Of a stretch of 64,000 nt of DNA, positions 18,564 through 30,263 are shown piece after piece. The stretch comes from an uncultured delta proteobacterium. Lineage in GTDB: Bacteria > Desulfobacterota > Binatia > DP-6. Below the pieces are notes generated by a model. That model saw only the letters and a program-made list of their open reading frames with translations, made no database searches and was not told where the DNA came from. Location: assembly GCA_963815115.1 (NCBI GenBank), contig CAWFFN010000007.1, positions 896,001 to 960,000 on the forward strand, given 5' to 3'. Numbering within the stretch: the stretch's first letter is position 1; each line of letters begins with the position of its first letter. A program made the position numbers and the translations under genes.

Positions 18564-18614
18564 TTCCGAGCGCGCCCGCCCCGACTCGAACGGGGGACCT
18601 GCAGGTTCGAAGCC
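18564..18614 (-). repeat. Distal att site (displaced tRNA-Arg 3' half)
   Basis: 48/51 identical to 30183-30233. Confidence 0.92.
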
Positions 18615-18743
18615 GGATCCAGACGAGTGAGGCCCTGCCCCGCCAGGTATGGGTTTCCATGCCTCTCGCCTGTCTTTTCAGCGTCCTGACTGCGAGCGCG
18701 AATTCGTTAGCCTTCGCTGGGGTTCGATCGAGTTCGACCGGCT

Positions 18744-18765
18744 ACTGACACCAGAACTGACACCG
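18744..18765 (+). repeat. Putative integrase arm-type site (left)
   Basis: ACTGACACCAGAACTGACACCG, identical to 30100-30121; internal direct repeat ACTGACACC. Confidence 0.75.
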
Positions 18766-18817: not shown

Positions 18818-19309
18818 TCATGCGAACAGACTCGCGATACAGGCGGTCGGCTCCAGCAGGGTCGCGTCGTACGTCTCTGTGGTCAGGCTCGTCATCGTGA
18901 CCTGCACGCCGCCCCTGCGCTGTCCCCTCTGCGACGGGTCCCCCGGAGGTGCCGTGGCCGCCCGACGGTCGTACCTGAGCGATCCTCCGAGTATCCCATC
19001 GACCTCGTCGGCGACCCCGGAGAGGCGCGCGTACCCGCCGTGCGAGAGTAACCCGAGCCGCTGCGACAGCCGCAGCGTGATGCGGAGTGCGTCGAGCCGC
19101 CCGCTCGCCTCGGCCAGCGTCTCGCCCTTCTCGGTGCGGCGGTTCGCGACGGTGAGGAGCACCATCATCTGGAGCGCGTCCTCCAGGATGACGCACCCGA
19201 GGAGTGTGCGCTGTGCGCGTGGGAAGCGGTTCACATGTTCGTACAGACCGGCGCAGAGATCGTAAGACCGTTGCACGACGGGAATCAGGTTCTCCTGACG
19301 GTGGGTTAT
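18818..19309 (-). pseudogene. avd: Degenerate DGR accessory protein Avd (four-helix bundle)
   Basis: IPVVQRSYDL..VNRFPRAQRTLLG..LDALRITLRLSQRLGLLSHGGY..DEVDGILGG; GGAGG RBS followed by ATA (19309) where ATG is expected; in-frame GTG at 19276. Confidence 0.72.
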
Positions 19310-19327
19310 CGCGCTCCCTCCGCCGGA

Positions 19328-19402
19328 CCCTCCTCGGGCGGCACGGGCTCACGCCCGCCCCTCCGAGGAGGGCCAAGGGTCAAAGAACCAAAGAGCCAAA
19401 GC
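19328..19402 (-). other. IMH-like 8-nt repeats plus GC-rich hairpin downstream of the CLec gene
   Basis: Minus strand CTTTGGCT-CTTTGGTT-CTTTGACC-CTTGG, then 10-bp stem CCCTCCTCGG/CCGAGGAGGG (19328-37/19363-72) with inner CGGGC-N4-GCCCG. Confidence 0.6.
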
Positions 19403-19413
19403 CCGGGGACGAC

Positions 19414-20298
19414 TCAGCGAGCACACCGGAAGCCGACGGCGGCTTGTATATTGCTATCGCCGTTGGCAGTCACCTTGAAGACTCCGTCATTACCCGCGCC
19501 ACCGCTGAAAAAGCCTCCGCGAGACAACGGGCCCGGAAGCTGGTGGAAAAAGAGGGTGCCTCCGTTGCCAGGAAACGTAGTGGGGCTACCGTCCCCCCCC
19601 ACGCAACTCGTGTCGTGACCTGCGATCCCGGTCTGGTGCGTCCAGTCGGCGCAGGGACCACTCGAATTGTCCACCCAGTCCGCCACCCACTCGTCCACGT
19701 TCCCCACCAGGTCGAACACGCCCCAGCTCGACTTGCAGCTGCTGCGGGAGCCTGCGTTCACGAGCCCGGGTGAATTGACGGCACAGTCCGTTGTCCGGTT
19801 GTCCGAGCCCGGATTGGGCGTTCCGGCGGCCGCCCCCTGCCACTCGCTGTTCCTCAGCAGCCTCTTGCCCGAGAGCAGGCATGCCTGGTTCGCCTGGAAC
19901 CAGGTCATGCACCCGTTCGGCAGCACTCCCGGGATCGAGACGGCGTAAACCCCCGGCGACGGCGGGTGCGACCCCTGGACCGGCGTCCAGTTCCCGTCGG
20001 GGGGGAAGTTCTTCGGGGAGTCGGCGGCTATCACCCCGATGCACACGAAGGTTGAATTGAGCTGCGTCGCCCCGCCGGCCGTGAGATCGGCGAGCGTGGC
20101 TTTCCCTTGCTGCACCTTCTTCACGAGCGACGTGTTCGAGGGCGGGATCTTCCACACGCTCGCCTCGTAGAGGTCAACGCAGACGGTGCCGACCTTCACC
20201 GAGTCGGGCGGGCACTTGGACGCCCCCGCGCCGGGCGACAGGGCGGCCAGCCAGACGGCCGTGCAAACAACGATTGAGCACCTGCGAAGGCCCTTCAT
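19414..20298 (-). CDS. Secreted FGE-sulfatase/CLec-fold protein (DGR-target-like), paralog 1
   Basis: Signal peptide; CVDLYEAS, GKRLLRNSEW, GVFDLVGNVDEWV, RGG...GFRCAR. Confidence 0.88.
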   Translation of the reverse strand: MKGLRRCSIVVCTAVWLAALSPGAGASKCPPDSVKVGTVCVDLYEASVWKIPPSNTSLVKKVQQGKATLADLTAGGATQLNSTFVCIGVIAADSPKNFPPDGNWTPVQGSHPPSPGVYAVSIPGVLPNGCMTWFQANQACLLSGKRLLRNSEWQGAAAGTPNPGSDNRTTDCAVNSPGLVNAGSRSSCKSSWGVFDLVGNVDEWVADWVDNSSGPCADWTHQTGIAGHDTSCVGGDGSPTTFPGNGGTLFFHQLPGPLSRGGFFSGGAGNDGVFKVTANGDSNIQAAVGFRCAR

Positions 20299-20317
20299 GA
20301 TGTCACCCGACGACTAG

Positions 20318-21172
20318 CTAGTGCGCACAGCGGAACCCCGTGCCGCCGACGCCGTTCGACAGGACGTTGTCCGGTTCGTCGGCATTCGCCGCGAAGACTC
20401 CGGCGTCCGTGCTAAGTGGGAAGAAGCCGCCGCGAAGCAAACCACCCGGAATCTGGCCGTAGAATCCGCTGCCGTTGACTCCCCCGAAGCAGCTGCGATC
20501 GTGACCAGGGATTCCCACCTGGTTCGTCCAGTCGGTGCACGCCGCGCTCAGGTCCTCCCATTCAGCCACCCACTCATCCACGTTCCCCACCATGTCGAAC
20601 ACGCCCCAGCTCGACTTACAGCTCGACCGGGAGCCCGTGTTCACGGTGTCCTTTACGAACGAGATGTTGCAGTCCGTCGTCCCGTTGTCCGTCCCCGGGT
20701 CCGACGTGCCCGCTGCTGCGGCTTGCCACTCCCGGTTCGTCAGCAGTCGCTTGCCCGAGAGCAGGCACGCCTGGTTCGCTTGGAACCAGCTGGTGCCGAC
20801 GGTCGGCTGCACCCCGGGGATGGACACCGCATAGACCCCCGGCGACGGCGGGTTCGATCCGGGAACGGGTGTCCAGTTGCCGTCTTGCGGGAAGTTAGCG
20901 GGGAAGTCCGTACTGCACGACGGCGAGGAGCACAGCTGCGTCGCCCCGCCCCCGATCAGGTCAGCGCGCGTCGCCTTGCCCGCCTGCACCTTCTTCACGA
21001 GCGACGTGTTCGAAGGCGGGATCTGCCACACGCTCGCCTCGTAGAGGTCAACGCAGACGTTGCCGACCTTCACCGAGTCGGGCGGGCACTTGGACGCCCC
21101 CGCGCCGGCCGACAGGGCGGCCAGCCAGACGGCCGTGCAAACAACGATTGAGCACCTGCGAAGGCCCTTCAT
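20318..21172 (-). CDS. Secreted FGE-sulfatase/CLec-fold protein, paralog 2
   Basis: 5' end almost identical in DNA to paralog 1; GVFDMVGNVDEW, RGG..AGVF..GFRCAH. Confidence 0.88.
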   Translation of the reverse strand: MKGLRRCSIVVCTAVWLAALSAGAGASKCPPDSVKVGNVCVDLYEASVWQIPPSNTSLVKKVQAGKATRADLIGGGATQLCSSPSCSTDFPANFPQDGNWTPVPGSNPPSPGVYAVSIPGVQPTVGTSWFQANQACLLSGKRLLTNREWQAAAAGTSDPGTDNGTTDCNISFVKDTVNTGSRSSCKSSWGVFDMVGNVDEWVAEWEDLSAACTDWTNQVGIPGHDRSCFGGVNGSGFYGQIPGGLLRGGFFPLSTDAGVFAANADEPDNVLSNGVGGTGFRCAH

Positions 21173-21187
21173 GATGTCACCCGACGC

Positions 21188-22090
21188 CTAGCGAGCACAC
21201 CGGAAGCCGCGACGGGGGGCCGAGAACGAGGGGTCGTTCCGGGCATCCACATCGAAGACTCCCGCATTCGTGCCGGCGCTGAAGCCGCCGCCGCGAGCCA
21301 GCGCGGCCGGTAACTGGTTGGCAGCACCGACGCCGTCCCCCCCGAAGCAGCTCCTGTCGTTACCAGGGATTCCAGTCTGGCTCGTCCAGTCGGTGCAGCC
21401 GACATTGGCACGGTCGGCCCAGTCCCCCACCCACTCCTCCACGTTCCCCACCATGTCGAACACGCCCCAGCTCGACTTGCAGGTCGCCCGCGAGCCCGTC
21501 TTCACCACGCCGGAGGAGATGGCGCAGTCCGTCGTCCCGTTGTCCGTTCCGGGGTCGGGCGTGCCCGCCGCCGCCCCCTGCCACTCGACGTTCGTCAGCA
21601 GGTGTTTGCCCGACAGCTGACACGCCTGGTTCGCCTGGAACCAGGTGATGCACGTACTGGGCTCCACCCCCGGGAGGGATAGGGCGTAGACACCCGGCGA
21701 CGGCGGGTTGGACTCCACGAAGCCGCCGCCTGGTTTGACCATCAGCACCGGCAACCAGTTGCCATCCGGCGGGAAGATCTGCGGGTAGGACGGCACACAC
21801 GACGACGCCGGGCTCAACAGAATCCCTTTGGGACTCGAAGGGTTGTTCACGGTCCCGAGCCCCCCCCTCAGGTCGGCGAGCGTCGCTTTGCCGGCCTGCA
21901 CCTTCGTCACGAGCGACGCATTCGCTATCGGGTCGATCTGCCACACGCTCGCCTCGTAGAGGTCGACGCAGACGGTACCGACCTTCACCGAGTCGGGCGG
22001 GCACTTGGACGCCCCCGCGCCGGCCGGCACCGCCGCCACGAGGCAGACGGCCGTGTAGCCAAGGACGGTGTACCTGCGAAATCCCTTCAT
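21188..22090 (-). CDS. Secreted FGE-sulfatase/CLec-fold protein, paralog 3
   Basis: GGAGAAGGA RBS; GVFDMVGNVEEW, RGGGFSAGTNAGVFDVDARNDPSFSAPRRGFRCAR. Confidence 0.88.
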   Translation of the reverse strand: MKGFRRYTVLGYTAVCLVAAVPAGAGASKCPPDSVKVGTVCVDLYEASVWQIDPIANASLVTKVQAGKATLADLRGGLGTVNNPSSPKGILLSPASSCVPSYPQIFPPDGNWLPVLMVKPGGGFVESNPPSPGVYALSLPGVEPSTCITWFQANQACQLSGKHLLTNVEWQGAAAGTPDPGTDNGTTDCAISSGVVKTGSRATCKSSWGVFDMVGNVEEWVGDWADRANVGCTDWTSQTGIPGNDRSCFGGDGVGAANQLPAALARGGGFSAGTNAGVFDVDARNDPSFSAPRRGFRCAR

Positions 22091-22502
22091 GGTCCTTCTC
22101 CCTCCCCGCGATCCGGCTTCCCGGAGTTGGGCCGCAGAGCGAGCGGCGTCCGTTGCACGGCACCTCGCGCGCTCTTCGCGAGGCGAGCGACGAGCATACT
22201 CCCGTCACTCACTACTGTCATGGTACTTGTGCAGTCTGGTACCGAACTCGTCCATGGCTCACCCGCCATGTTCCGCAGACACCGTCCGTCCGTGCAGGCC
22301 ACGTTTACGGGCGGTGCCCCATCTGGAGAGCGTTATCCTTGCCGGCTAGCCTGGCGGACGCTTCAGGCAGTCATGCAGATATCCACGAGAGGATGCCCGC
22401 CGTTCGCGCCACGGTATGCCCTCCTTCATGGCCAGAGATCAAAGACGCCATCGCCCCAGCAGCGCCCGACGATTCAGGTTGGACGTGTACGATAGCATCC
22501 AC

Positions 22503-22820
22503 ATGGCCCAGAGACGGACACGGATCCAGGTCGAGCAGCTGGTAGCCTTCCTCGACGTCAGTCAGGTAGCCCTGCTCTGCGACTTCGCTGGCGGGCGGCG
22601 CATCCCGAAGCGGGAGCAGTTCGAGGCGTGGAAGCGGCGAGTGCTCCTGCTCGGCGACTGGCTGCACCGAGGATACGGGGTCCGTGGGCTCGCTGCGAAG
22701 TACGGCCTGACGGAGAGCGCGGTGAAGCGGTTGCTGACGATTGCCCGGAGAAAGATACGGCTCGACAAGCTGCGAGCCGAGACCGAGGCGGGGATCGGGA
22801 CTCGTGGGGGCACGCGATGA
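22503..22820 (+). CDS. Small basic protein, possible HTH DNA-binding domain
   Basis: GYGVRGLAAKYGLTESAVKRLL resembles an HTH; ATGA-coupled to next ORF. Confidence 0.5.
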   Translation: MAQRRTRIQVEQLVAFLDVSQVALLCDFAGGRRIPKREQFEAWKRRVLLLGDWLHRGYGVRGLAAKYGLTESAVKRLLTIARRKIRLDKLRAETEAGIGTRGGTR

Positions 22821-23392
22821 CGATGGCCGAGGAGCTTGCCGCAAGGCGGCGGGCGCGTTGCTGGGCCCCGAACGCCACCTTCGCCGCTCGACTGGCTGGC
22901 TTTGAGCGAGACCTTCAGGCCGTACTGGACCGCGTCCCGAACCTCACGGGTCGGCCCCGCACCCCCGCCACCCTACGCCTGACCCTCGACGACCTGGCCG
23001 CTCTTCTGCCGCCAGCCGAGGCGCGGCTGTTGGAGCACCTCCGTGCTCGACGGCCGCTCAAGGCCCTCGATGGCACGCCAGGATTCAGGACGAGGAGTCG
23101 GCGCAATGAGCGGCTCCAGCGGCTCCTGTCGCGCGTGACGGCGTACTGCGGGTCGACGGTGCGGTACGACGTGATGCAGCCGTACGACCGTCCCGGGCAT
23201 CGGCACCGGTCCCGACGCGGGCCCCGGCGTCGGATTAGGTCCGCTCCACGGACTCGCCCTGTCTGCGTGTGGGTGCCAGGGTACTTCCTCGCCGCCAACC
23301 GCGACTGGCTGAAACCGACCAGGAGGGTCGGGCGGAGGAGGTGGCTCCCGCCCTATGCTGCGGTTCTGCCCCCCGCTGAACGGGCTGCATGA
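22817..23392 (+). CDS. Hypothetical Arg-rich protein
   Basis: ATGA overlap with upstream ORF; no recognised motif. Confidence 0.45.
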   Translation: MTMAEELAARRRARCWAPNATFAARLAGFERDLQAVLDRVPNLTGRPRTPATLRLTLDDLAALLPPAEARLLEHLRARRPLKALDGTPGFRTRSRRNERLQRLLSRVTAYCGSTVRYDVMQPYDRPGHRHRSRRGPRRRIRSAPRTRPVCVWVPGYFLAANRDWLKPTRRVGRRRWLPPYAAVLPPAERAA

Positions 23393-23862
23393 ACGCCGCC
23401 ATGCCGCAGGCGGACGTCAGCGTTGTGGCGTCGGTCGCCCGAAGCAGAAACGTCGCATCGGCGGGCGTTTTTCGCGAGCTGTAGGGTCGCCCGTTCCTCT
23501 GTTCGAGGGGGAGGGGCGGGTGTCCAGGGGTAGGACTCCCGGTCGTGGCGGGGGGCGGTCAGCTTCGACCGGCTGTCGCGGTGCGCGCCGGCCGAGTGAC
23601 ACGAGTGACGTGCTACTAGTAACACCATGATCTAGCTGATCGACTAGCGGAAGTGGCCTGGGGCCCGCCACTCGCGTCACTCCCCCAGCCAGCCAGCTTC
23701 ACGCGGTCGGACGCCCAGAACCCCCTCCACGCCCTCGCATCGCCCGAGATCGCCGCTGCTGCAGCCGGCACGCCCGCGATCGACCAATAACTCACGATGG
23801 AACTGTAGACTGCGTTCGCACGCTGCGGGATCAACCCGCTCTCGCGCAGAAAGGTCATCATC

Positions 23863-24066
23863 GTGAACGAACCCCGAACCCCCACGGGCACCCGGCGCGT
23901 GTCGGTGAAGGAGGCCGCCGACCTGCTCGGCGTCTCGCGCCACACGTTGCGCCGCTGGCTGGCGCTCCGCCTGATCCCGTACCACCACTGCGGCCGCAGG
24001 GTCGTTCTCGACCCCCGCGATCTGGAGCACTTCCTCCAGGCCAACCGCGTCGAGGCGATCCGATGA
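23863..24066 (+). CDS. Excisionase-like HTH_17 protein
   Basis: VSVKEAADLLGVSRHTLRRW..IPYHHCGRRV; ATGA-coupled to the primase. Confidence 0.8.
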   Translation: MNEPRTPTGTRRVSVKEAADLLGVSRHTLRRWLALRLIPYHHCGRRVVLDPRDLEHFLQANRVEAIR

Positions 24067-26279
24067 CGCCGACCCAGAACACGTCTGTCGTCGAAGCGGC
24101 CTTGAACTTCAAGGCACGGGGCTAGAGCCCTGTCCCGCTGCCCATCGGCGAGAAGAAGCCCATCGGCTCCGCCTGGCAGAAGCAGCGCCTCACCGCAGAG
24201 CAGCTCCCGTCGTACTTCAACAACGGCACCCACAACGTCGGCGTACTGCTCGGCGAGCCCTCGAACAACCTGGTGGACATCGACCTCGACGTTTTCGAAG
24301 CCGTCCACCTGGCCGACGCCTTCCTTCCTGCGACCAGCTTCGTCTTCGGCCGGAAGAGCAACCCCCGGTCGCACCGGTTCTACCGGACGACGGCCCCCTG
24401 GAAGTCGCGGCAGTTCAAGGCCCCCGACGGCACGATGCTTGTCGAGTTGCGCTCGACCGGGATGCAGACCGTCGTGCCGCCGAGCATCCACCCGAGCGGC
24501 GAGCGCATCGAATTCGAACGGGACGGCGAGCCCGCCGAGGTCATGGGCGAGGACCTGGAACGGTCCGTATCGCGGGTGGCCGCCGCCAGCCTGATCGCGA
24601 GGCAATGGCCGAAGCAAGGGAGCCGGCACCAGGCCGCTCTCGCACTGGCTGGGGGACTGCTGCGTGCCGGGTGGACCGTCGAGGAGACGGTGGCCTTCGT
24701 GCGCGCCGTCGTCCAAGCAGCGGGAGACGAAGAGGTCGAGGATCGCGTCGAGGCGGTGATCTCGACGAGCACCCGCCTCGAAGAGGGCGGAGATGCTACC
24801 GGTTGGCCCCAGCTCGTCGAGCTGATCGGCACCCGCGTCGTGGACTGCGTCGCGAAGTGGTTGGGCATTCGACCGCGCACCCAGGCTTCATCACAGGTTA
24901 CGGGGGCCGACGGCGGCCAAGAAGGCGAGGCCCGAAGCGACTACGGCAACGCCCAACGGCTCGTCAGGCGGCACGGAGAGGATCTCCGCTACTGCCACGG
25001 GCGCGGGTGGTTCGTCTGGAACGGGAAGCGGTGGGTCGTGGATGACAGCGGCGAAGTCGTGCGGCGCGCCAAGGATACCGTCAAGGCGATGGTTGTCGAG
25101 GCTGCCGACCTCGGTGACGACGAGCGCATCCGGCTCCAGGAAGCACGCACTGGCATCCGAGGCCGCCGCCCGGATCAAGGCGATGATCTCGCTGGCCGAG
25201 TCGGAGGCGGCCGTGTCCGTGATCCCGGCCCAATTCGACGCCGATCCCTTCCTGTTCAACGCGATGAACGGCTCCATTGACCTCCGAGACAGGCGAACTG
25301 CGTCCACACCGCCGCGAGGACCTCGTCACGAAGCTCGCCCCCGTTGAGTACGACCCGGACGCGACGTGCCCCGAGTGGGAGTCGTTCCTCGTGACCGCCA
25401 CTGGAGGCGACCAGGAACTCATGGCGTACCTTCAGCGCGGCGTCGGCTACTGCCTGACCGGCGACACGTCGTGAGGAGAAGTTCTTCTTCGTCCACGGGC
25501 CCGGAGCGACCGGGAAAACGACTCTCGCCGAGGCCGTGAAGGCGATGATGGGCGACTACGCGATGACAGCAGACTTCGAGGCGTTTCTCGCCCGCCCCAA
25601 CCCGAGTGGTGCCCGCAACGACATCGCCCGGCTCCAGGGTGCACGTCTGGTCACGGCCGCCGAGGTGGAGGATGGCAGGGAACTCTCGCACAGCCTCATC
25701 AAGCAGATGACGGGGCGCGACAAGGTGACCGCACGGTATCTCTACCGCGAGCACTTCGAATTCGTGCCGCAGTGCAAGATCCTCCTCGTCGCGAACCACG
25801 CGCCCCGCGTCCAGGCCAGCGACGCTGCGATGTGGCGGCGCATCGCGCGCGTCCCGTTCCTGCAGGTCCTGGCCCCGACCGAACGGGATCCCCACCTGAA
25901 GGAGGTGCTGTGCGATCCGGCGCGCGGCGGCCCTGCCGTGCTGGCGTGGGCCGTGAAGGGGTGCATCGCCTGGCAGGCGACCGGCCTCACGAGCTGCGCC
26001 GCCGTAGACGAGGCGACGGCCGGCTATCGCGCCGAGATGGATACGGTCCAGCGGTTCATCGACGACTGCTGCGTTGTCGAGCCGAGGGCGAGGGTCCCCT
26101 TCGGCGCGCTGTACCTGCGCTACACGCGGTGGTGCGACGACGAGGGAGTGGCTCCCCTCGGCAAGGGCAAGTTCGCCGCCGACCTTGAAACTCGCGGGTT
26201 CGAGTCGGCGGTGGGAACAGGCGGTGTGAAGTATCGGCGGGGCATCGGCCTTCGCGCAGCTCAGTCGGAGGTTGCGTAG
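24063..26279 (+). pseudogene. Prim-Pol plus P4/D5-type primase-helicase, disrupted
   Basis: NVGVLLG..LVDIDLD, QTVVPPSIHPSG, SDYGNAQRL, GPGATGKTT, DDCC; TAG at 24123 and frame changes near 25140, 25285 and 25472. Confidence 0.85.
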
Positions 26280-26594
26280 TGACGCTGACCAAGGACCAGA
26301 CGCTGCCGAGCGGCCACTACCGACACGACGACCTGCACACCGGCCGAGAGTCATGCGCGGCCGGCGAGGCCGTGCCCAGAGAGACGCATCGACCCGACTC
26401 TCGCAACCTCCGCCGTGCTCCCTGCTCCATCTGCGGGCACGAGAACTCACCGGATGCCCGGCCGGCGTCTGCCAGGTCTGCGACGCGCCCCGGCATCGGC
26501 ACGGCTACGACACCTGGGACGAGTACCAGTTGGACTTGGAACCAAGGGATCGGGGATCGTCGCAGCCGCCCACCGGAGCGGGCGCTCGGACAAC

Positions 26595-27077
26595 ATGACA
26601 AATCCCCCCGCCCAGATATCGAGCCCGCAATCCGACTGTGCAGCCTCCGAAGGCCGCCAGCCCGACATCGTGCTCGCCGCCGAGAGCTTCCCGATCGAGG
26701 GCACGGAGGTCTTGCATGCCGTCAGCCGGGAAAACGAGAGCGCCGACCATGGGACCCGTCCCACGCGACGGAGAACCTGTCGTGGCCGCACCTCGAAGAC
26801 AAAGAACGCCAAGAGAAGGGCCGCTTGCGGGGCCAGCACCCATCAAGGCCGTCAACGCGACGCCGTCGATGACGGCACACCTGGTGGAACGCTCGACCCG
26901 CTACTCGATGTGTACCAGGTGGCCGCACTCCTCGGCGTACAGCCCACGACTGTCTATCAGTGGGCGTACCAGCGACGGATCGCCAAGGTGAAGATCGGGG
27001 CGCTGCTCCGCTTCCGCCAGAGCACCATCCGCCGTCTCATCGACGACGGCGAACGACCGGCCCTCAAGCCGGCTTGA
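26595..27077 (+). CDS. Protein with C-terminal excisionase-like HTH
   Basis: LLDVYQVAALLGVQPTTVYQW..KVKIGALLRF; true start uncertain. Confidence 0.65.
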   Translation: MTNPPAQISSPQSDCAASEGRQPDIVLAAESFPIEGTEVLHAVSRENESADHGTRPTRRRTCRGRTSKTKNAKRRAACGASTHQGRQRDAVDDGTPGGTLDPLLDVYQVAALLGVQPTTVYQWAYQRRIAKVKIGALLRFRQSTIRRLIDDGERPALKPA

Positions 27078-27307
27078 CCGGCTGATAACGTAATGGTTAT
27101 CATCCGAGCAAGCGATGAACTCGATCAAGGAGGTGCGAAGACGGCTCGGCCTGAGCCTGGCGGACGTGGCGGCGCGGTGCGGTCTTCACCGGGAAGCGGT
27201 CGCCAGAGCAGAGCGAGAGGGAACAGATGTTCGAGCCTCGACACTCCTCGCCATTGCGAAGGCGCTAGCGGCGCGTGTCAATGAGATGAGAGAGGGGCAT
27301 GGTGAAA

Positions 27308-28450
27308 TTACTGTCCCGCCGCGACGTCGAGCTCCGCGAGCAGGAGGTCGTCCGCAGCCACGAGCATCGAGACTGGGGGGGTACCTGGACCTTGGACCGG
27401 CTCCGTTGCGGGCGTCTGCGGGGCTCTGAGCGCGACGTTTCTTCGCGATCGCGGGCTCGGAACGCCATTGCGGTCGAGGGCCGGCGGATTGATCCACACT
27501 TCCGTCGGGGGCTGTTGCACCCGCGGTGTCTTCCCCTTGAAGCGTTCGGGATGAGCCGCGAATGCCGCCGCGAGCGTTTCCCCCCGTCGTGCCACGATCG
27601 CCAGGGCCGTCCCGCTGTGCACGCTCACCGGCGTCAGGAACCCGATCCCGCTGTGCCGATGCTCTTCGTTGTACCAGGGGAAGAATCGCCGCAGGAATCC
27701 CAGGGCGTCCTGCTGCGACCCGAATCGCTCGGGAAACTCCGGACGCGACTTCAACGTGCGAAACTGCGACTCCGAAAACGGATTGTCGTTGCTGGTGTAC
27801 GGTCGCGTCAGGCTCCGCGTGATCGACAGGTCGGCCAACAGCTGGCCCACCGTCTTCGACGTCATCGCCGGCCCGCGGTCGGAGTGCAGCGTCAGGACCG
27901 CCTCCGCGATCCCCTCCTTCTCGCAGCTCTCCTTGATCAAGCGGCGCGCCAACGTCGCCGACTCTCGATCCGCCAAGAGCCACCCCACCACGTAGCGGCT
28001 GAAGATGTCGAGCAGCACGTAGAGGTAGAAGTACGTCCACTTCGCCGGCCCCTTGAGCTTCGTGATGTCCCACGACCACACCTGGTTCGGTCCCGTCGCC
28101 AGGAGCTCGGGCCGCGTCGCCACCGGGTGGCGCAGCTGGTTGCGCCGCTCGCGGACTTCCCCGTGCCGATCGAGAATCCGGTACATCGTCCGCAGCGAGC
28201 AGTGGTAGGTTCCCTCCTCGAGCAACGTCGCGTACACCTCCGCCGGAGCCTGGTCGATGAACCGTTCCGAATGCAGCACGTCGAGAACGGCAGCCTCCTC
28301 GACCTCGGACAATGCCAGCGGCGGCCGCGATCGAACCGCCGTCTCCGAACATGGTCGCCGCCACCGGTAAAAACTTGCCGGGGCCACGCCCAACGCCCCA
28401 CAGGCGGCCTGGACCCCCACGGCGTCGGCCAACGTCTGCGCCGTCGCCAT
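27308..28450 (-). CDS. IS3-family transposase OrfB (rve DDE)
   Basis: PNQVWSWDIT, LDIFSRYVVGW, LHSDRG, DNPFSESQFRTLK, WYNEEHRHS. Confidence 0.92.
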   Translation of the reverse strand: MATAQTLADAVGVQAACGALGVAPASFYRWRRPCSETAVRSRPPLALSEVEEAAVLDVLHSERFIDQAPAEVYATLLEEGTYHCSLRTMYRILDRHGEVRERRNQLRHPVATRPELLATGPNQVWSWDITKLKGPAKWTYFYLYVLLDIFSRYVVGWLLADRESATLARRLIKESCEKEGIAEAVLTLHSDRGPAMTSKTVGQLLADLSITRSLTRPYTSNDNPFSESQFRTLKSRPEFPERFGSQQDALGFLRRFFPWYNEEHRHSGIGFLTPVSVHSGTALAIVARRGETLAAAFAAHPERFKGKTPRVQQPPTEVWINPPALDRNGVPSPRSRRNVALRAPQTPATEPVQGPGTPPVSMLVAADDLLLAELDVAAGQ

Positions 28451-28929
28451 CAGCTCCCGACCTCCTCGTCGCTCGGCGGCAGCCCCAGCAACTGTGAGAC
28501 TTTTTTTTGAACGTCGATGATCACGTGCGCCTTGCGCAGCTCCTCCCGCAGCCGCGCGTTCTCCCGCTCCATCCCGGCGAGTCGCTTCGCCAACGGATGC
28601 GCCACCGCCTTGCGCCCGCGCGCGTGCCCCGCCAGCCCGACCAACGCCCCCGCCTCGCGCTGCTGACGCCACACGCTCAGATGCGACGTGTAGAGCCCCT
28701 CGCGTCGCAGCAGCGCCCCGATCTCCCCCGGCTCGCGACACCCGTCGGCCTCGGCCAGGAGCTGTCGCTTGTACTCGGCCGTGAACCGGCGCCGCTGCGC
28801 CTTCGCCGGAACCTCCGGATCCTTGCGGCCCGTCGGCGCCGGCGCGCCCGCAACTTCAGTCGCCCTACGGGCTCCTTCCGTTCCGGGCGCGCTTCCTGAT
28901 CCCCCGCCATCCCTCACCTTCACTCCCAC
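28450..28929 (-). CDS. IS3-family OrfA (HTH)
   Basis: RRRFTAEYK..IGALLRREGLY..IIDVQKKV; A8G run at 28500-28508 is a candidate -1 frameshift site. Confidence 0.85.
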   Translation of the reverse strand: MGVKVRDGGGSGSAPGTEGARRATEVAGAPAPTGRKDPEVPAKAQRRRFTAEYKRQLLAEADGCREPGEIGALLRREGLYTSHLSVWRQQREAGALVGLAGHARGRKAVAHPLAKRLAGMERENARLREELRKAHVIIDVQKKVSQLLGLPPSDEEVGS

Positions 28930-29046
28930 CTCGCTCGCCTTCCTCCGTCCCCTCGTACACTAAATTCGGATCGCCTCCTCTCTCACGTTCATTGGCACAG
29001 GGGGTAGGCGTGCCCGTGTGCGAATTGTACGGAGAAGCGGGACGAC

Positions 29047-30252
29047 ATGAGCGACGAGAAGCGAAGCGATCGCACCGCTAAGCGGGAGCGGGGCATCTAC
29101 GAGCGCGAGCCGGGTTCGGGCGTTTGGTCGATCCGCTACGCCGACGAGAACGGCACCATCCACCGGGAGGTGGTCGGTCCGAAGGGCCTGGCCCGGAAGG
29201 TCTACCAGAAGCGCAAGAACGAGGTGCACGAGCGTCGCTTCTTCCCCGAGCGCATCGGCCGTCGCGACGTCCTCTTCGCCGTGATGGTCGATGACTACCT
29301 CAGCCGCGTGAAAGGCCGCCTACGCTGCTACCGGGAGTACGAGCGGTACGGCCGCTACTGGAAGGCCGCCCTACCCGGCCGCAGCCTGCGACAGATCCTC
29401 CCCGGCGACATCGAGCGATATGTCGCTCAGCGCGCCCGCGACGTCGCCCCCGCCACTGTCAACCGAGAGCTGCAGTTCCTGAAGCACCTCTTCAACGTCG
29501 CCATCGCCGACGGTAAGGCAGAAACGAACCCCGTCAAGGCCGTCAAGCTCTTCAGGGAGAACAACCAGCGGGTGCGCTTCCTCACAGACGACGAGGAGAG
29601 CGCCCTCCGTCAAGCCATCGGTGAGGTCGAGTGGCCGATGGTGGCCTTGGCCATCCATACCGGCCTGCGCCAAGCCGAGCAGTTCAAACTCCGCTGGGAT
29701 CATGTGGACTTCAAAACCGGCATCATCACGATCCCTCGTTCGAAACATGGCGAGGCAAGGCGCGTTCCCATGAACGACACGGTCCGGGATATCCTCCGAT
29801 CCCGCCAGAGCCGCCTGAAGAGTCCCTATGTGTTCCCCAGCGCCACTGGCGAGACACCCCTCGACGCACGCAACTACATGAACCGAGTCTTCAACAAGGC
29901 GCTGAAGCGCGCGAAGGTCGAGAACTTCACCTGGCACTGCCTGCGGCACACCTTCGCAAGCCGCCTGGTCATGAAGGGCGTCGATCTCCGCACGGTGCAG
30001 GAGCTGACGGGCCACAAGACGATGACCATGACGCTCCGTTACTCGCACCTGTCGCCCGGGCACCAGCTCGACGCCGTCCAGCGCCTGAACGCAGCACCAA
30101 CTGACACCAGAACTGACACCGACGTGCAGCCCATGCAGGCGGTCGGCGGACCGAAGGCAGAAATCGTAGACGGGCCGTGGATTTCCGAGCGCGCCCGGCC
30201 CGATTCGAACGGGCGACCTGCAGGTTCGAAGCCTGACGCTCTATCCAGCTGA
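29047..30252 (+). CDS. Tyrosine integrase
   Basis: PATVNREL, HTGLR, SKHG, HCLRHTFASRL, LTGH, RYSH; adjacent to tRNA att. Confidence 0.93.
   Translation: MSDEKRSDRTAKRERGIYEREPGSGVWSIRYADENGTIHREVVGPKGLARKVYQKRKNEVHERRFFPERIGRRDVLFAVMVDDYLSRVKGRLRCYREYERYGRYWKAALPGRSLRQILPGDIERYVAQRARDVAPATVNRELQFLKHLFNVAIADGKAETNPVKAVKLFRENNQRVRFLTDDEESALRQAIGEVEWPMVALAIHTGLRQAEQFKLRWDHVDFKTGIITIPRSKHGEARRVPMNDTVRDILRSRQSRLKSPYVFPSATGETPLDARNYMNRVFNKALKRAKVENFTWHCLRHTFASRLVMKGVDLRTVQELTGHKTMTMTLRYSHLSPGHQLDAVQRLNAAPTDTRTDTDVQPMQAVGGPKAEIVDGPWISERARPDSNGRPAGSKPDALSS
30100..30121 (+). repeat. Putative integrase arm-type site (right)
   Basis: Identical 22-mer to 18744-18765. Confidence 0.75.
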
Positions 30253-30263
30253 GCTACGGGCGC
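30190..30263 (-). tRNA. tRNA-Arg (anticodon UCG), CCA not encoded
   Basis: Cloverleaf GCGCCCG-TA-GCTC..GAGC-G-TCAGG-CTTCGAA-CCTGC-AGGTC-GCCCG-TTCGAAT-CGGGC-CGGGCGC-G; one anticodon-stem mismatch. Confidence 0.93.

What the first reader, a model, noticed from the sequence alone, without database searches (positions are those of the whole stretch)
18818..22090. Orphaned DGR cassette: three secreted CLec paralogs, IMH-like hairpin and Avd, with no RT or TR
Seen: three tandem signal-peptide proteins with conserved cores (GVFD(M/L)VGNVxEW) and divergent C-termini between RGG and GFRC. Paralogs 1 and 3 share the last 20 nt (CGGCTTCCGGTGTGCTCGCT). The paralog 3 tail (RGG-GF-SA-GTNAGVF-D-V-D-A-RND-PS-F-S-APRR-GFRC) has mostly NNC/NNT codons at variable positions. 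After paralog 1 come 8-nt CTTTGG repeats, a GC hairpin and an Avd-like gene. Known: BPP-1-type DGRs have a CLec target with a C-terminal VR, an IMH plus hairpin, Avd, an AAC-rich TR and an RT. Inference: either a DGR lost its RT/TR and left a fixed repertoire of lectin-like binders expanded by duplication, or this is a target cassette diversified in trans. Secreted multi-copy targets on a capsid-less tRNA island are unusual.
Basis: partly seen in the sequence, partly recalled or inferred. Interest (0 to 1): 0.88.

Follow-up and report, generated by a model that had tools for sequence, protein, structure and literature searches.

The report
Decayed diversity-generating retroelement with frozen lectin genes
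This is the wreck of a bacterial "targeted mutation machine" (a diversity-generating retroelement): three binding-protein genes and its docking signals survive on a small mobile island, but the enzyme and template that rewrote them are gone.

Summary
Window 18818-22090 (minus strand) holds three tandem CLec/FGE-sulfatase paralogs. Behind paralog 1 lie a conserved VR-end motif, TTTG-type repeats, a strong GC hairpin and an Avd-like ORF. Neither the window nor the 6.9-Mb genome has a reverse transcriptase or template repeat.

Relatives settle what it was. Metagenome loci carry the full cassette CLec(VR)-repeats-hairpin-avd::MutS_I-TR-RT, with almost purely adenine-specific TR/VR mismatches. A same-family genome keeps the same Avd fused to MutS_I and the C-terminal half of the RT.

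In the window the avd::MSL gene has lost its ATG (now ATA). It breaks off about 19 residues into the MutS_I part, about 230 nt before the island's tRNA-Arg repeat.

All three tails carry a fossil DGR signature. At the 12 AAY codons of the closest TR, 11 of 12 codons end in C/T in each paralog. Changes are enriched at TR adenines. The tails also differ from one another at non-adenine sites as much as the gene bodies do, so no shared TR has rewritten them recently.

Verdict: a decayed MSL-type DGR with frozen targets, a new member of a known kind. Such relics are common in this family (23 of 42 metagenome loci).

The parts
21188..22090 (-). CLec/FGE-sulfatase paralog 3 (300 aa), signal-like N-terminus; fossil VR about 21188-21312
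   Evidence: PF03781 53.8 bits. The tail aligns without gaps to the L026 TR: 19 of 29 A sites changed against 22 of 96 non-A sites, p 7e-5. 11 of 12 codons at TR-AAY positions end in C/T.
20318..21172 (-). CLec/FGE-sulfatase paralog 2 (284 aa); fossil VR about 20318-20451 with a 9-nt insertion relative to the TR
   Evidence: PF03781 46.1 bits. 17 of 29 A sites changed against 22 of 96 non-A sites, p 5e-4. 11 of 12 NNY codons. Only a short IMH-like stub (TAGTCGTCGGG) follows the stop; there are no repeats and no hairpin.
19414..20298 (-). CLec/FGE-sulfatase paralog 1 (294 aa); fossil VR about 19417-19540 with indels relative to the TR
   Evidence: PF03781 35.1 bits. 16 of 26 A sites changed against 25 of 94 non-A sites, p 0.002. 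11 of 12 NNY codons.
19417..19436 (-). Conserved VR 3' end (IMH-like), CGGCTTCCGGTGTGCTCGCT, shared with paralog 3
   Evidence: the same GGNTTYCGNTGYGNNCGNT motif ends the VR and the TR in relatives.
19376..19402 (-). Three to four TTTG/CTTGG-type cores spaced 7-8 nt, between the VR end and the hairpin
   Evidence: Present on the VR side of the relatives listed, and absent from the TR-side sequences printed.
19324..19375 (-). GC-rich hairpin (21 pairs, GTGA loop) with GCGGGCG...GCCCG core
   Evidence: DNA fold -28 kcal/mol, z -3.2. 19 of 19 VR-side sequences of the family form a 14-26-pair hairpin here. The outer stem sequence differs between loci while pairing is kept.
18818..19309 (-). Truncated avd::MSL pseudogene: Avd four-helix part plus the first ~19 residues of the MutS_I-like part. 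The native ATG is ATA (19307-19309); the first usable start is GTG at 19276. Homology to relatives ends near 18851.
   Evidence: bAvd E 8.8e-9, 36.3 bits, under the cut-off. 68-72% identical to full Avd::MutS_I proteins (L026 residues 4-166 of 231). ATG is present in L022, L026, L054 and L065.
18564..18617 (.). Direct repeat of the 3' part of tRNA-Arg (far end of the island)
   Evidence: blastn: 54 nt, 92.6% identical to 30183-30236.
22416..27429 (+). Island backbone: weak Mor-like ORF, two HTH_17 (excisionase-like) ORFs, a Prim-Pol/D5_N/DUF5906/Pox_D5 primase-helicase split over three ORFs, and an HTH_3 regulator
   Evidence: Pfam.
27308..28929 (-). IS3-family insertion sequence (rve transposase) inside the island
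   Evidence: PF00665 85.4 bits. Its end is 96-100% identical to stretches on contigs C8, C9 and C5.
29047..30252 (+). Tyrosine integrase next to the tRNA
   Evidence: PF00589 111.8 bits.
30189..30263 (-). tRNA-Arg(tcg), integration site
   Evidence: ARAGORN.

Best explanation
The locus is the remnant of a diversity-generating retroelement of the MSL (MutS-like accessory) type. The complete form of this DGR is: secreted CLec target with C-terminal VR, VR-end motif, TTTG repeats, GC hairpin, avd fused to a MutS_I domain, TR, spacer, RT. In this genome a deletion removed everything from about residue 19 of the MutS_I part onward, including TR and RT. The avd start codon has also mutated. Mutagenic retrohoming therefore cannot occur from this cassette (shown). 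The three CLec genes are intact ORFs. Their tails still carry the codon pattern left by adenine mutagenesis, but they have since drifted like ordinary DNA (shown). They now most likely act as three fixed-specificity, exported ligand-binding proteins carried on an 11.6-kb tRNA-Arg integrative island that is itself decaying (inferred). The avd stub is most likely a pseudogene (inferred from start loss, truncation and sub-threshold HMM score).
For: (1) A same-family genome (L003/L022) has the same CLec tail, repeats and hairpin. Its Avd is 72% identical (bAvd 55.5 bits) and fused to MutS_I (37.9 bits), followed by the C-terminal half of an RT (RVT_1 profile positions 111-203). (2) Of 42 metagenome loci found with the Avd alignment, 9 have an Avd::MSL match spanning its full length plus an RT match spanning at least residues 14-342. 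(3) All 7 loci tested have TR/VR pairs with adenine-specific mismatches: L030 17 of 17, L033 18 of 18, L026 18 of 21, L037 16 of 17, L035 14 of 15, L038 21 of 25, L044 20 of 22. (4) Against the closest TR (L026), the window tails change preferentially at adenines: par3 19/29 vs 22/96, par2 17/29 vs 22/96, par1 16/26 vs 25/94. (5) At the 12 TR-AAY codons, 11 of 12 codons end in C/T in each paralog. Counting only four-fold codon families, 15 of 17 do, against a background of 0.415 (p 9e-5). (6) The own genome has no RT by Pfam or by a family-specific tblastn (best E 0.14), and no TR or spacer. (7) Avd matches L026 residues 4-166 of 231 only. The native ATG reads ATA, while four relatives have ATG. 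(8) A profile of the CLec family finds the DGR variable protein TvpA (2Y3C, E 2.2e-9) as the best solved relative, and also Mtd. Foldseek finds FGE, Mtd and TaqVP.
Against: The genome looks like a metagenome-assembled genome in 12 contigs, so an RT on an unbinned mobile element cannot be excluded. The A-site and NNY signals were measured against a TR from a relative (Avd 68% identical), not the lost TR of this element. Adenine-rich TR codons also coincide with ligand-binding positions that would vary under ordinary diversifying selection, although the four-fold-codon control speaks against that. Non-adenine divergence from the L026 TR is high (about 23-27%), and paralogs 1 and 2 need indels to align, so the time of the last homing, and whether all three were targets of one element, are unknown. 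The cis region behind paralog 1 is intact and well conserved (80-90% identical to relatives, against 72-75% for the CLec body), which would also fit a still-competent target. No expression data exist for any of the genes.
Confidence: 0.85

Rival explanations
1. The cassette is still a live target set. An RT plus TR elsewhere (an unassembled plasmid, a phage or another cell's element) diversifies one or more of the tails in trans, using the intact VR-end motif, repeats and hairpin behind paralog 1.
For: The cis elements behind paralog 1 are complete and more conserved than the flanking coding DNA. The genome is in 12 contigs, and mobile DNA may be missing from it. Remote targets served by a distant RT are documented (PMC3521204, passage read).
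Against: No RT and no TR or spacer were found in the genome. No RT of this type was found in the 5 genomes of the genus, and no full-length one in the 25 genomes of the family. The tails differ from one another at 23-29 of 94-96 TR non-adenine columns, as much as or more than the gene bodies, so no single TR has homogenised them. Paralogs 2 and 3 lack the repeats and hairpin. The local avd is truncated and has no start codon.
Confidence: 0.05
2. Only paralog 1 was ever a DGR target. Paralogs 2 and 3 are ordinary duplicated CLec genes, and their variable tails arose by normal mutation and diversifying selection.
For: Paralogs 2 and 3 are followed directly by the next gene, without repeats or hairpin. 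Paralog 2 needs a 9-nt insertion to align to the TR. Genomes with DGRs usually also hold non-VR paralogs of the target (PMC3521204, passage read).
Against: Paralog 3 gives the cleanest signal of the three: a gap-free alignment to the TR, with 19/29 A sites changed against 22/96 non-A (p 7e-5). Both paralogs show 11 of 12 C/T-ending codons at TR-AAY positions, and 5 of 6 each among four-fold codon families, where amino-acid choice cannot explain the third base. Both keep the VR-end motif and a stub of the post-stop IMH-like sequence.
Confidence: 0.08
3. The Avd-like ORF is not a dead remnant. It is kept as a stand-alone four-helix-bundle protein with a new role, translated from the GTG at 19276.
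For: The frame is open for 152-176 codons. The Avd part is 68-72% identical to functional-looking relatives.
Against: The native ATG is lost. The C-terminus runs into unrelated sequence. The HMM score falls below the family cut-off. In a genome with 68-70% G+C, long open frames arise by chance; one search lists 106 ORFs of at least 50 aa in 13 kb. In relatives, Avd stubs of every length (23 to 153 residues) occur, as expected of random deletion.
Confidence: 0.07

Closest known systems
MSL-type DGRs (architecture D of Wu et al. 2018, PMC5758913; passages read), which include the Legionella DGR
   Same: Relatives of the window cassette combine avd, a MutS_I-like accessory domain, TR and RT with a C-terminal VR target. 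The paper states that MSL-containing DGRs always also contain avd.
   Different: Here Avd and the MutS_I domain are one 231-aa reading frame. The passages I read describe MSL as small separate proteins of 112-283 aa and do not mention a fusion; I could not see the supplements. The window copy itself lacks most of MSL, the TR and the RT.
Bordetella phage BPP-1 DGR (mtd-avd-TR-brt), as summarised in the introduction of PMC5758913
   Same: [quoted passage not shown] Mtd is found by the CLec profile (E 5e-5) and by Foldseek.
   Different: This one is chromosomal, on an island without capsid genes, rather than in a phage tail-fibre locus. It has three target paralogs and extra 7-8-nt periodic TTTG repeats between the VR end and the hairpin. 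It has no RT or TR.
Treponema denticola variable protein TvpA (PDB 2Y3C)
   Same: It is the best solved-structure relative of the CLec family profile (E 2.2e-9, profile positions 92-255 against chain residues 133-291). It is a bacterial DGR variable protein with the FGE-type CLec fold.
   Different: Sequence similarity is distant, and the N-terminal region differs. TvpA belongs to a complete DGR (the last point is recalled, not tested here).
Degraded or orphaned DGR components reported in cyanobacteria (PMC7517822, passages read) and 'no longer functional' DGRs (PMC3521204, passage read)
   Same: A target paralog keeps remnant VR features with no RT nearby. The authors propose that the diversification machinery is removed once a good variant is fixed.
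   Different: Here the decay path can be read directly. The breakpoint inside avd::MSL is mapped, three frozen targets sit in tandem on a mobile island, and the same family shows many independent deletions.

Membership tests
Diversity-generating retroelement (complete, active) | DGR-clade reverse transcriptase | tested here: not met
   PF00078 gives 0 matches in the own genome. tblastn with the 353-aa RT of L026 gives a best E of 0.14. Relatives do have it.
Diversity-generating retroelement (complete, active) | Template repeat matching the VR except at adenines | tested here: not met
   The tails, and TR+spacer of three relatives, hit only CLec tails in the own genome. The feature is met in all 7 relatives tested.
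Diversity-generating retroelement (complete, active) | Target gene with a C-terminal variable region showing adenine-templated codon variation | tested here: met
   Met as a fossil signature only: A-site enrichment and NNY codons, 11 of 12 in each paralog.
Diversity-generating retroelement (complete, active) | IMH-like VR end followed by a GC-rich inverted repeat on the VR side only | tested here: met
   Met behind paralog 1 only. The TR sides of relatives continue into a different sequence.
bAvd (Pfam PF22296) | Score at or above the curated cut-off over the four-helix-bundle domain | tested here: not met
   36.3 bits (hmmscan) and 38.1 bits (genome search), against a cut-off of 40. The 72%-identical orthologue scores 55.5 bits, so homology is clear but the copy is degraded.
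MSL accessory protein / MutS_I domain (PF01624) | MutS domain I match | tested here: not met
   There is no Pfam hit in the window ORF. Only about 19 residues align to the start of the domain in L003, where the domain scores 37.9 bits.
FGE-sulfatase / CLec-fold variable proteins | PF03781 match above the cut-off, and relatedness to solved DGR variable proteins | tested here: met
   35.1, 46.1 and 53.8 bits against a cut-off of 23.3. The profile finds TvpA at E 2.2e-9 and Mtd at E 5e-5. Foldseek finds FGE, Mtd and TaqVP at probability 0.99-1.00, but with TM scores of only 0.3-0.4, because the model is of modest confidence (pLDDT 65.7).
tRNA-integrated genomic island | Tyrosine integrase next to a tRNA gene, with a direct repeat of the tRNA 3' part at the far end | tested here: met
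   An empty site in relatives could not be shown, because the flanks are not syntenic in the genus.

The most novel reading that the evidence does not exclude
RT-less genomes of this bacterial family keep homing-competent 'docking' targets. The VR-end motif, TTTG repeats and hairpin stay more conserved than the neighbouring coding DNA even in relics. A related DGR core (avd::MSL-TR-RT) arriving on a mobile element could therefore re-diversify resident CLec genes in trans. The many relics would then be a standby repertoire rather than junk.
Probability: 0.06. Interest if true: 0.75.

Novelty: new member of a known kind. Interest (0 to 1): 0.36.

Why it matters
The locus gives a clean, mapped example of how a DGR dies: targets and cis signals are kept while the core is deleted. 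It also shows that the adenine-mutagenesis codon signature can still be read in genes that no longer have a DGR. At least seven CLec genes of this RT-less genome carry that signature. In this DGR family, relics outnumber complete elements among the loci sampled. That fits the published idea that diversification is switched off once useful variants are fixed, and it cautions against inferring hypervariation from target-like genes alone. It does not reveal a new mechanism.

Tried and rejected
A viral-contig scan with the Avd alignment found no relative.

Sequencing runs: 8 soil or other metagenome runs were listed, all held as contigs, and no RNA holder was listed. I laid 4 runs. In the best holder, X1, the pieces covering parts of all three tails were identical to the window, but at depth 2-4. 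A 257-nt piece from X3 over the paralog-3 tail had 8 differences that were not adenine-specific. Contigs drop rare variants, so this says nothing about hypervariation.

Empty-site test: the left flank (acyl-CoA dehydrogenase) and the right flank (tRNA-Arg) lie on different contigs in the three same-genus genomes that matched both flanks, and the left flank is only 71-74% identical to them. No empty site could be shown.

RNAalifold on a MAFFT alignment of 17 VR-side sequences recovered only the inner 6 pairs, because the outer stems were misaligned. Per-sequence folding replaced it. A first version of that script crashed.

A short regular expression for the TR-side spacer was too degenerate to be useful (first part). 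The blastn in the same call replaced it.

The structure model of paralog 3 is only of modest confidence (pLDDT 65.7), so the fold matches have low TM scores.

The search of earlier findings returned nothing for this place.

I considered and rejected the reading that the hairpin is an intrinsic terminator, because no T-run follows it.

I did not compute dN/dS for the avd stub, because time before and time after the truncation cannot be separated.
Full report
**What is in the window**

On the minus strand of 18818-22090 lie three tandem ORFs of 294, 284 and 300 aa. Paralogs 2 and 3 are 72% and 66% identical to paralog 1, and all three share the WGVFD(L/M)VGNV(D/E)EW core. All three pass Pfam FGE-sulfatase PF03781. 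Each begins with a basic-hydrophobic, signal-like segment; I read this from the sequence and ran no predictor.

Paralogs 1 and 3 share the 20 nt before the stop codon. Behind paralog 1 come three to four TTTG/CTTGG cores spaced 7-8 nt, and then a 21-pair GC hairpin with a GTGA loop. The hairpin folds at -28 kcal/mol as DNA (z -3.2; 0 of 200 shuffles as stable).

Next comes an ORF that matches bAvd at E 8.8e-9. Its 36.3 bits are below the 40-bit cut-off.

The region sits at the far end of an 11.6-kb island. The island is bounded by tRNA-Arg(tcg) at 30189-30263 and a 54-nt, 92.6% repeat of the tRNA's 3' part at 18564-18617. It holds:
- a tyrosine integrase;
- an IS3-family insertion;
- an HTH_3 ORF and two HTH_17 ORFs;
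- a Prim-Pol/D5-type primase-helicase broken into three ORFs.

None of the 10 island ORFs I scanned matched a capsid or tail family. The scan was not exhaustive.

**No reverse transcriptase and no template**

PF00078 finds nothing in the 6.9-Mb genome (12 contigs, 100% complete by markers), while the control genomes respond. tblastn with a full-length RT of this very DGR family gives a best E of 0.14. blastn with the three tails, and with TR plus spacer from three relatives, hits only the tails of CLec genes.

**What it used to be**

A genome of the same family (G008, locus L003, also recovered as L022) carries the same CLec tail, repeats and hairpin. Its Avd is 72% identical and passes the Pfam cut-off (55.5 bits). 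That Avd runs on in the same frame into a MutS domain I (37.9 bits). It is followed by the C-terminal half of an RT (RVT_1 positions 111-203, with IGNLTSQ and YMDD visible). That copy is itself deleted between mid-MutS_I and mid-RT.

A metagenome scan with the Avd alignment returned 42 loci. I classified them from the tblastn table, made with the 231-aa Avd::MSL and the 353-aa RT of L026. The rule was that a match ending well before the protein's end, with more than about 150 nt of contig left, counts as internal truncation. The result:
- 9 of 42 have an Avd::MSL match spanning its whole length plus an RT match covering at least residues 14-342. In two of these, L038 and L044, the avd is rearranged or frame-shifted.
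- 10 of 42 are cut by contig ends and cannot be judged.
- 23 of 42 are truncated internally. Examples are L047 (Avd residues 2-58 joined to RT 238-349), L058, L061, and L028 (TR present, RT gone).

Several loci are near-duplicates (L024/L025, L030/L031), so these are not 42 independent events.

All seven RT-bearing loci tested have TR/VR pairs with adenine-specific mismatches:

| Locus | Mismatches at TR adenines |
|---|---|
| L030 | 17 of 17 |
| L033 | 18 of 18 |
| L026 | 18 of 21 |
| L037 | 16 of 17 |
| L035 | 14 of 15 |
| L038 | 21 of 25 |
| L044 | 20 of 22 |

The full architecture is therefore CLec(VR), repeats, hairpin, avd::MutS_I, TR, spacer, RT. This corresponds to the MSL-containing architecture D of Wu et al. 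(PMC5758913, passages read).

**Where the window copy is broken**

The window ORF aligns to residues 4-166 of the 231-residue L026 protein. Alignment with L003 shows homology ending about 19 residues into the MutS_I part, near 18851. After that the frame runs into unrelated sequence and stops at 18818.

At the native start position (19307-19309) the window reads ATA, where L022, L026, L054 and L065 read ATG. About 230 nt further on lies the island's terminal tRNA repeat. The TR and RT were thus deleted from inside the island, and the avd::MSL gene is most likely dead.

**Are the tails fossil variable regions?**

Against the closest available TR (L026), changes are enriched at TR adenines:

| Tail | A sites changed | Non-A sites changed | p | Alignment |
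|---|---|---|---|---|
| Paralog 3 | 19 of 29 | 22 of 96 | 7e-5 | no gap |
| Paralog 2 | 17 of 29 | 22 of 96 | 5e-4 | one 9-nt insertion |
| Paralog 1 | 16 of 26 | 25 of 94 | 0.002 | indels |
| L003 | 16 of 29 | 7 of 96 | 1e-7 | no gap |
| L023 | 21 of 26 | 8 of 95 | 1e-12 | 4 gap columns |

L003 and L023 are themselves truncated relatives whose tails lie closer to the L026 TR.

Adenine-rich TR codons coincide with binding-site positions, so I added a test that ordinary selection does not predict. DGR mutagenesis of AAC/AAT changes the first two bases and leaves the third. At the 12 TR-AAY codons, 11 of 12 codons end in C/T in each paralog, against 0.49-0.52 in the gene bodies. Among four-fold codon families only, the pooled count is 15 of 17 against 0.415 (p 9e-5).

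The same signature appears in other CLec genes of the genome:
- C8:680057: 12 of 12, and it also has the repeats and hairpin downstream;
- C2:16963: 11 of 12;
- C2:17975: 10 of 12;
- C5:1323304: 10 of 12;
- C5:938138: 7 of 12, so no signal there.

**Not recently rewritten**

The three tails differ from each other at 23-29 of 94-96 TR non-adenine columns (24-31%). That is as much as or more than their gene bodies, which are 79-82% identical. A shared TR would have homogenised those columns. Paralogs 2 and 3 also lack the repeats and hairpin; the next gene starts 15-19 nt after their stop codons.

**Protein family**

A profile of 18 family members finds the DGR variable protein TvpA (2Y3C) as the best solved relative (E 2.2e-9). 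It also finds FGE enzymes and Mtd. An AlphaFold model of paralog 3 (pLDDT 65.7, pTM 0.71) matches FGE, Mtd and TaqVP by Foldseek at probability 0.99-1.00, with low TM scores.

**Distribution**

- The CLec family is found in 15 of 24 other genomes of the bacterial family, often in tandem arrays.
- The Avd is found in 4 of 60 related genomes, of which only G008 has a copy close to the window's.
- RT matches of this type (70-84% identical) in the 25 family genomes are all partial. The longest covers residues 116-349. None was found in the 5 genomes of the genus.
- Relics with the VR end and repeats but no Avd occur in the same genus (L019) and in G020 (L012).

**Comparison with what is known, and verdict**

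The cis layout is an IMH-like VR end followed by a GC inverted repeat that is absent from the TR side. This matches the description of the Bordetella phage element in PMC5758913. Non-functional or degraded DGRs, and target paralogs with remnant VR features but no RT, have been reported (PMC3521204; PMC7517822; passages read).

This locus is therefore a new, well-resolved member of a known kind. The 'in trans' alternative is not supported, though it cannot be excluded for a metagenome-derived genome.

Two features may be new for DGRs. I did not find either in the passages I read, and I could not see the supplements. One is the fusion of Avd and the MutS_I domain in one frame. The other is the set of 7-8-nt periodic TTTG repeats between the VR end and the hairpin. 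This non-coding segment is 80-90% identical between the window and six relatives, against 72-75% for the CLec body.

Noticed in passing
L024-L065 (metagenome loci) and family genomes: In this DGR family, relics outnumber complete elements. 23 of 42 metagenome loci are internally truncated, 9 of 42 have a full Avd::MSL plus RT, and 10 cannot be judged. No full-length RT of this type was found in the 25 genomes of the bacterial family. Deletion end points differ from locus to locus.
   Followed up: partly
window 19376-19402; VR sides of L022, L023, L026, L030, L035 and others: TTTG/CTTGG-type cores spaced 7-8 nt lie between the VR end and the hairpin on the VR sides of the loci listed, but not on the TR sides. 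The whole stop-to-avd segment is 80-90% identical between the window and six relatives, more than the coding flanks. Their role is unknown; they may be a binding array for Avd::MSL or a host factor.
   Followed up: partly
own genome contig C8:680051-680860 (outside the window): Another CLec gene has the strongest fossil VR signature: 12 of 12 NNY codons, with tail DDFFFPSDFDFF. It has the repeats and a 15-pair hairpin downstream, but no Avd. Three further copies (C2:16963, C2:17975, C5:1323304) also show the NNY bias.
   Followed up: partly
window 24273-26279: The island's Prim-Pol/D5_N/DUF5906/Pox_D5 primase-helicase is split over three ORFs, and parts of the profiles are missing. The island's replication gene looks like a pseudogene.
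   Followed up: no
window about 27270-28950: An IS3-family element is inserted next to or into the HTH_3 gene. The last 52 residues of that ORF are 96-100% identical to stretches on contigs C8, C9 and C5, so the IS has several copies.
   Followed up: no
window 18744-18765 and 30100-30121: An exact 22-nt direct repeat lies just inside both ends of the island. These may be integrase arm sites.
   Followed up: no
window 20100-20298 and 20975-21172: The first ~200 nt of paralogs 1 and 2 differ at only about 7 positions, while their gene bodies are about 81% identical overall. This suggests recent gene conversion at the 5' ends.
   Followed up: no
L026:2024-2836: In L026, a locus with complete avd::MSL, TR and RT, the target VR carries an in-frame TGA where the TR has TGG. 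That target copy is interrupted.
   Followed up: no
L038:4150-4429: This locus has two TR copies in tandem and a partial duplicate of avd.
   Followed up: no
L012 (G020:C253) 1381-1692: A CLec relic with repeats and hairpin is followed about 100 nt later by a fragment 76% identical to residues 304-340 of the window island's integrase. The link between this cassette and this kind of island may therefore not be unique to the window.
   Followed up: no
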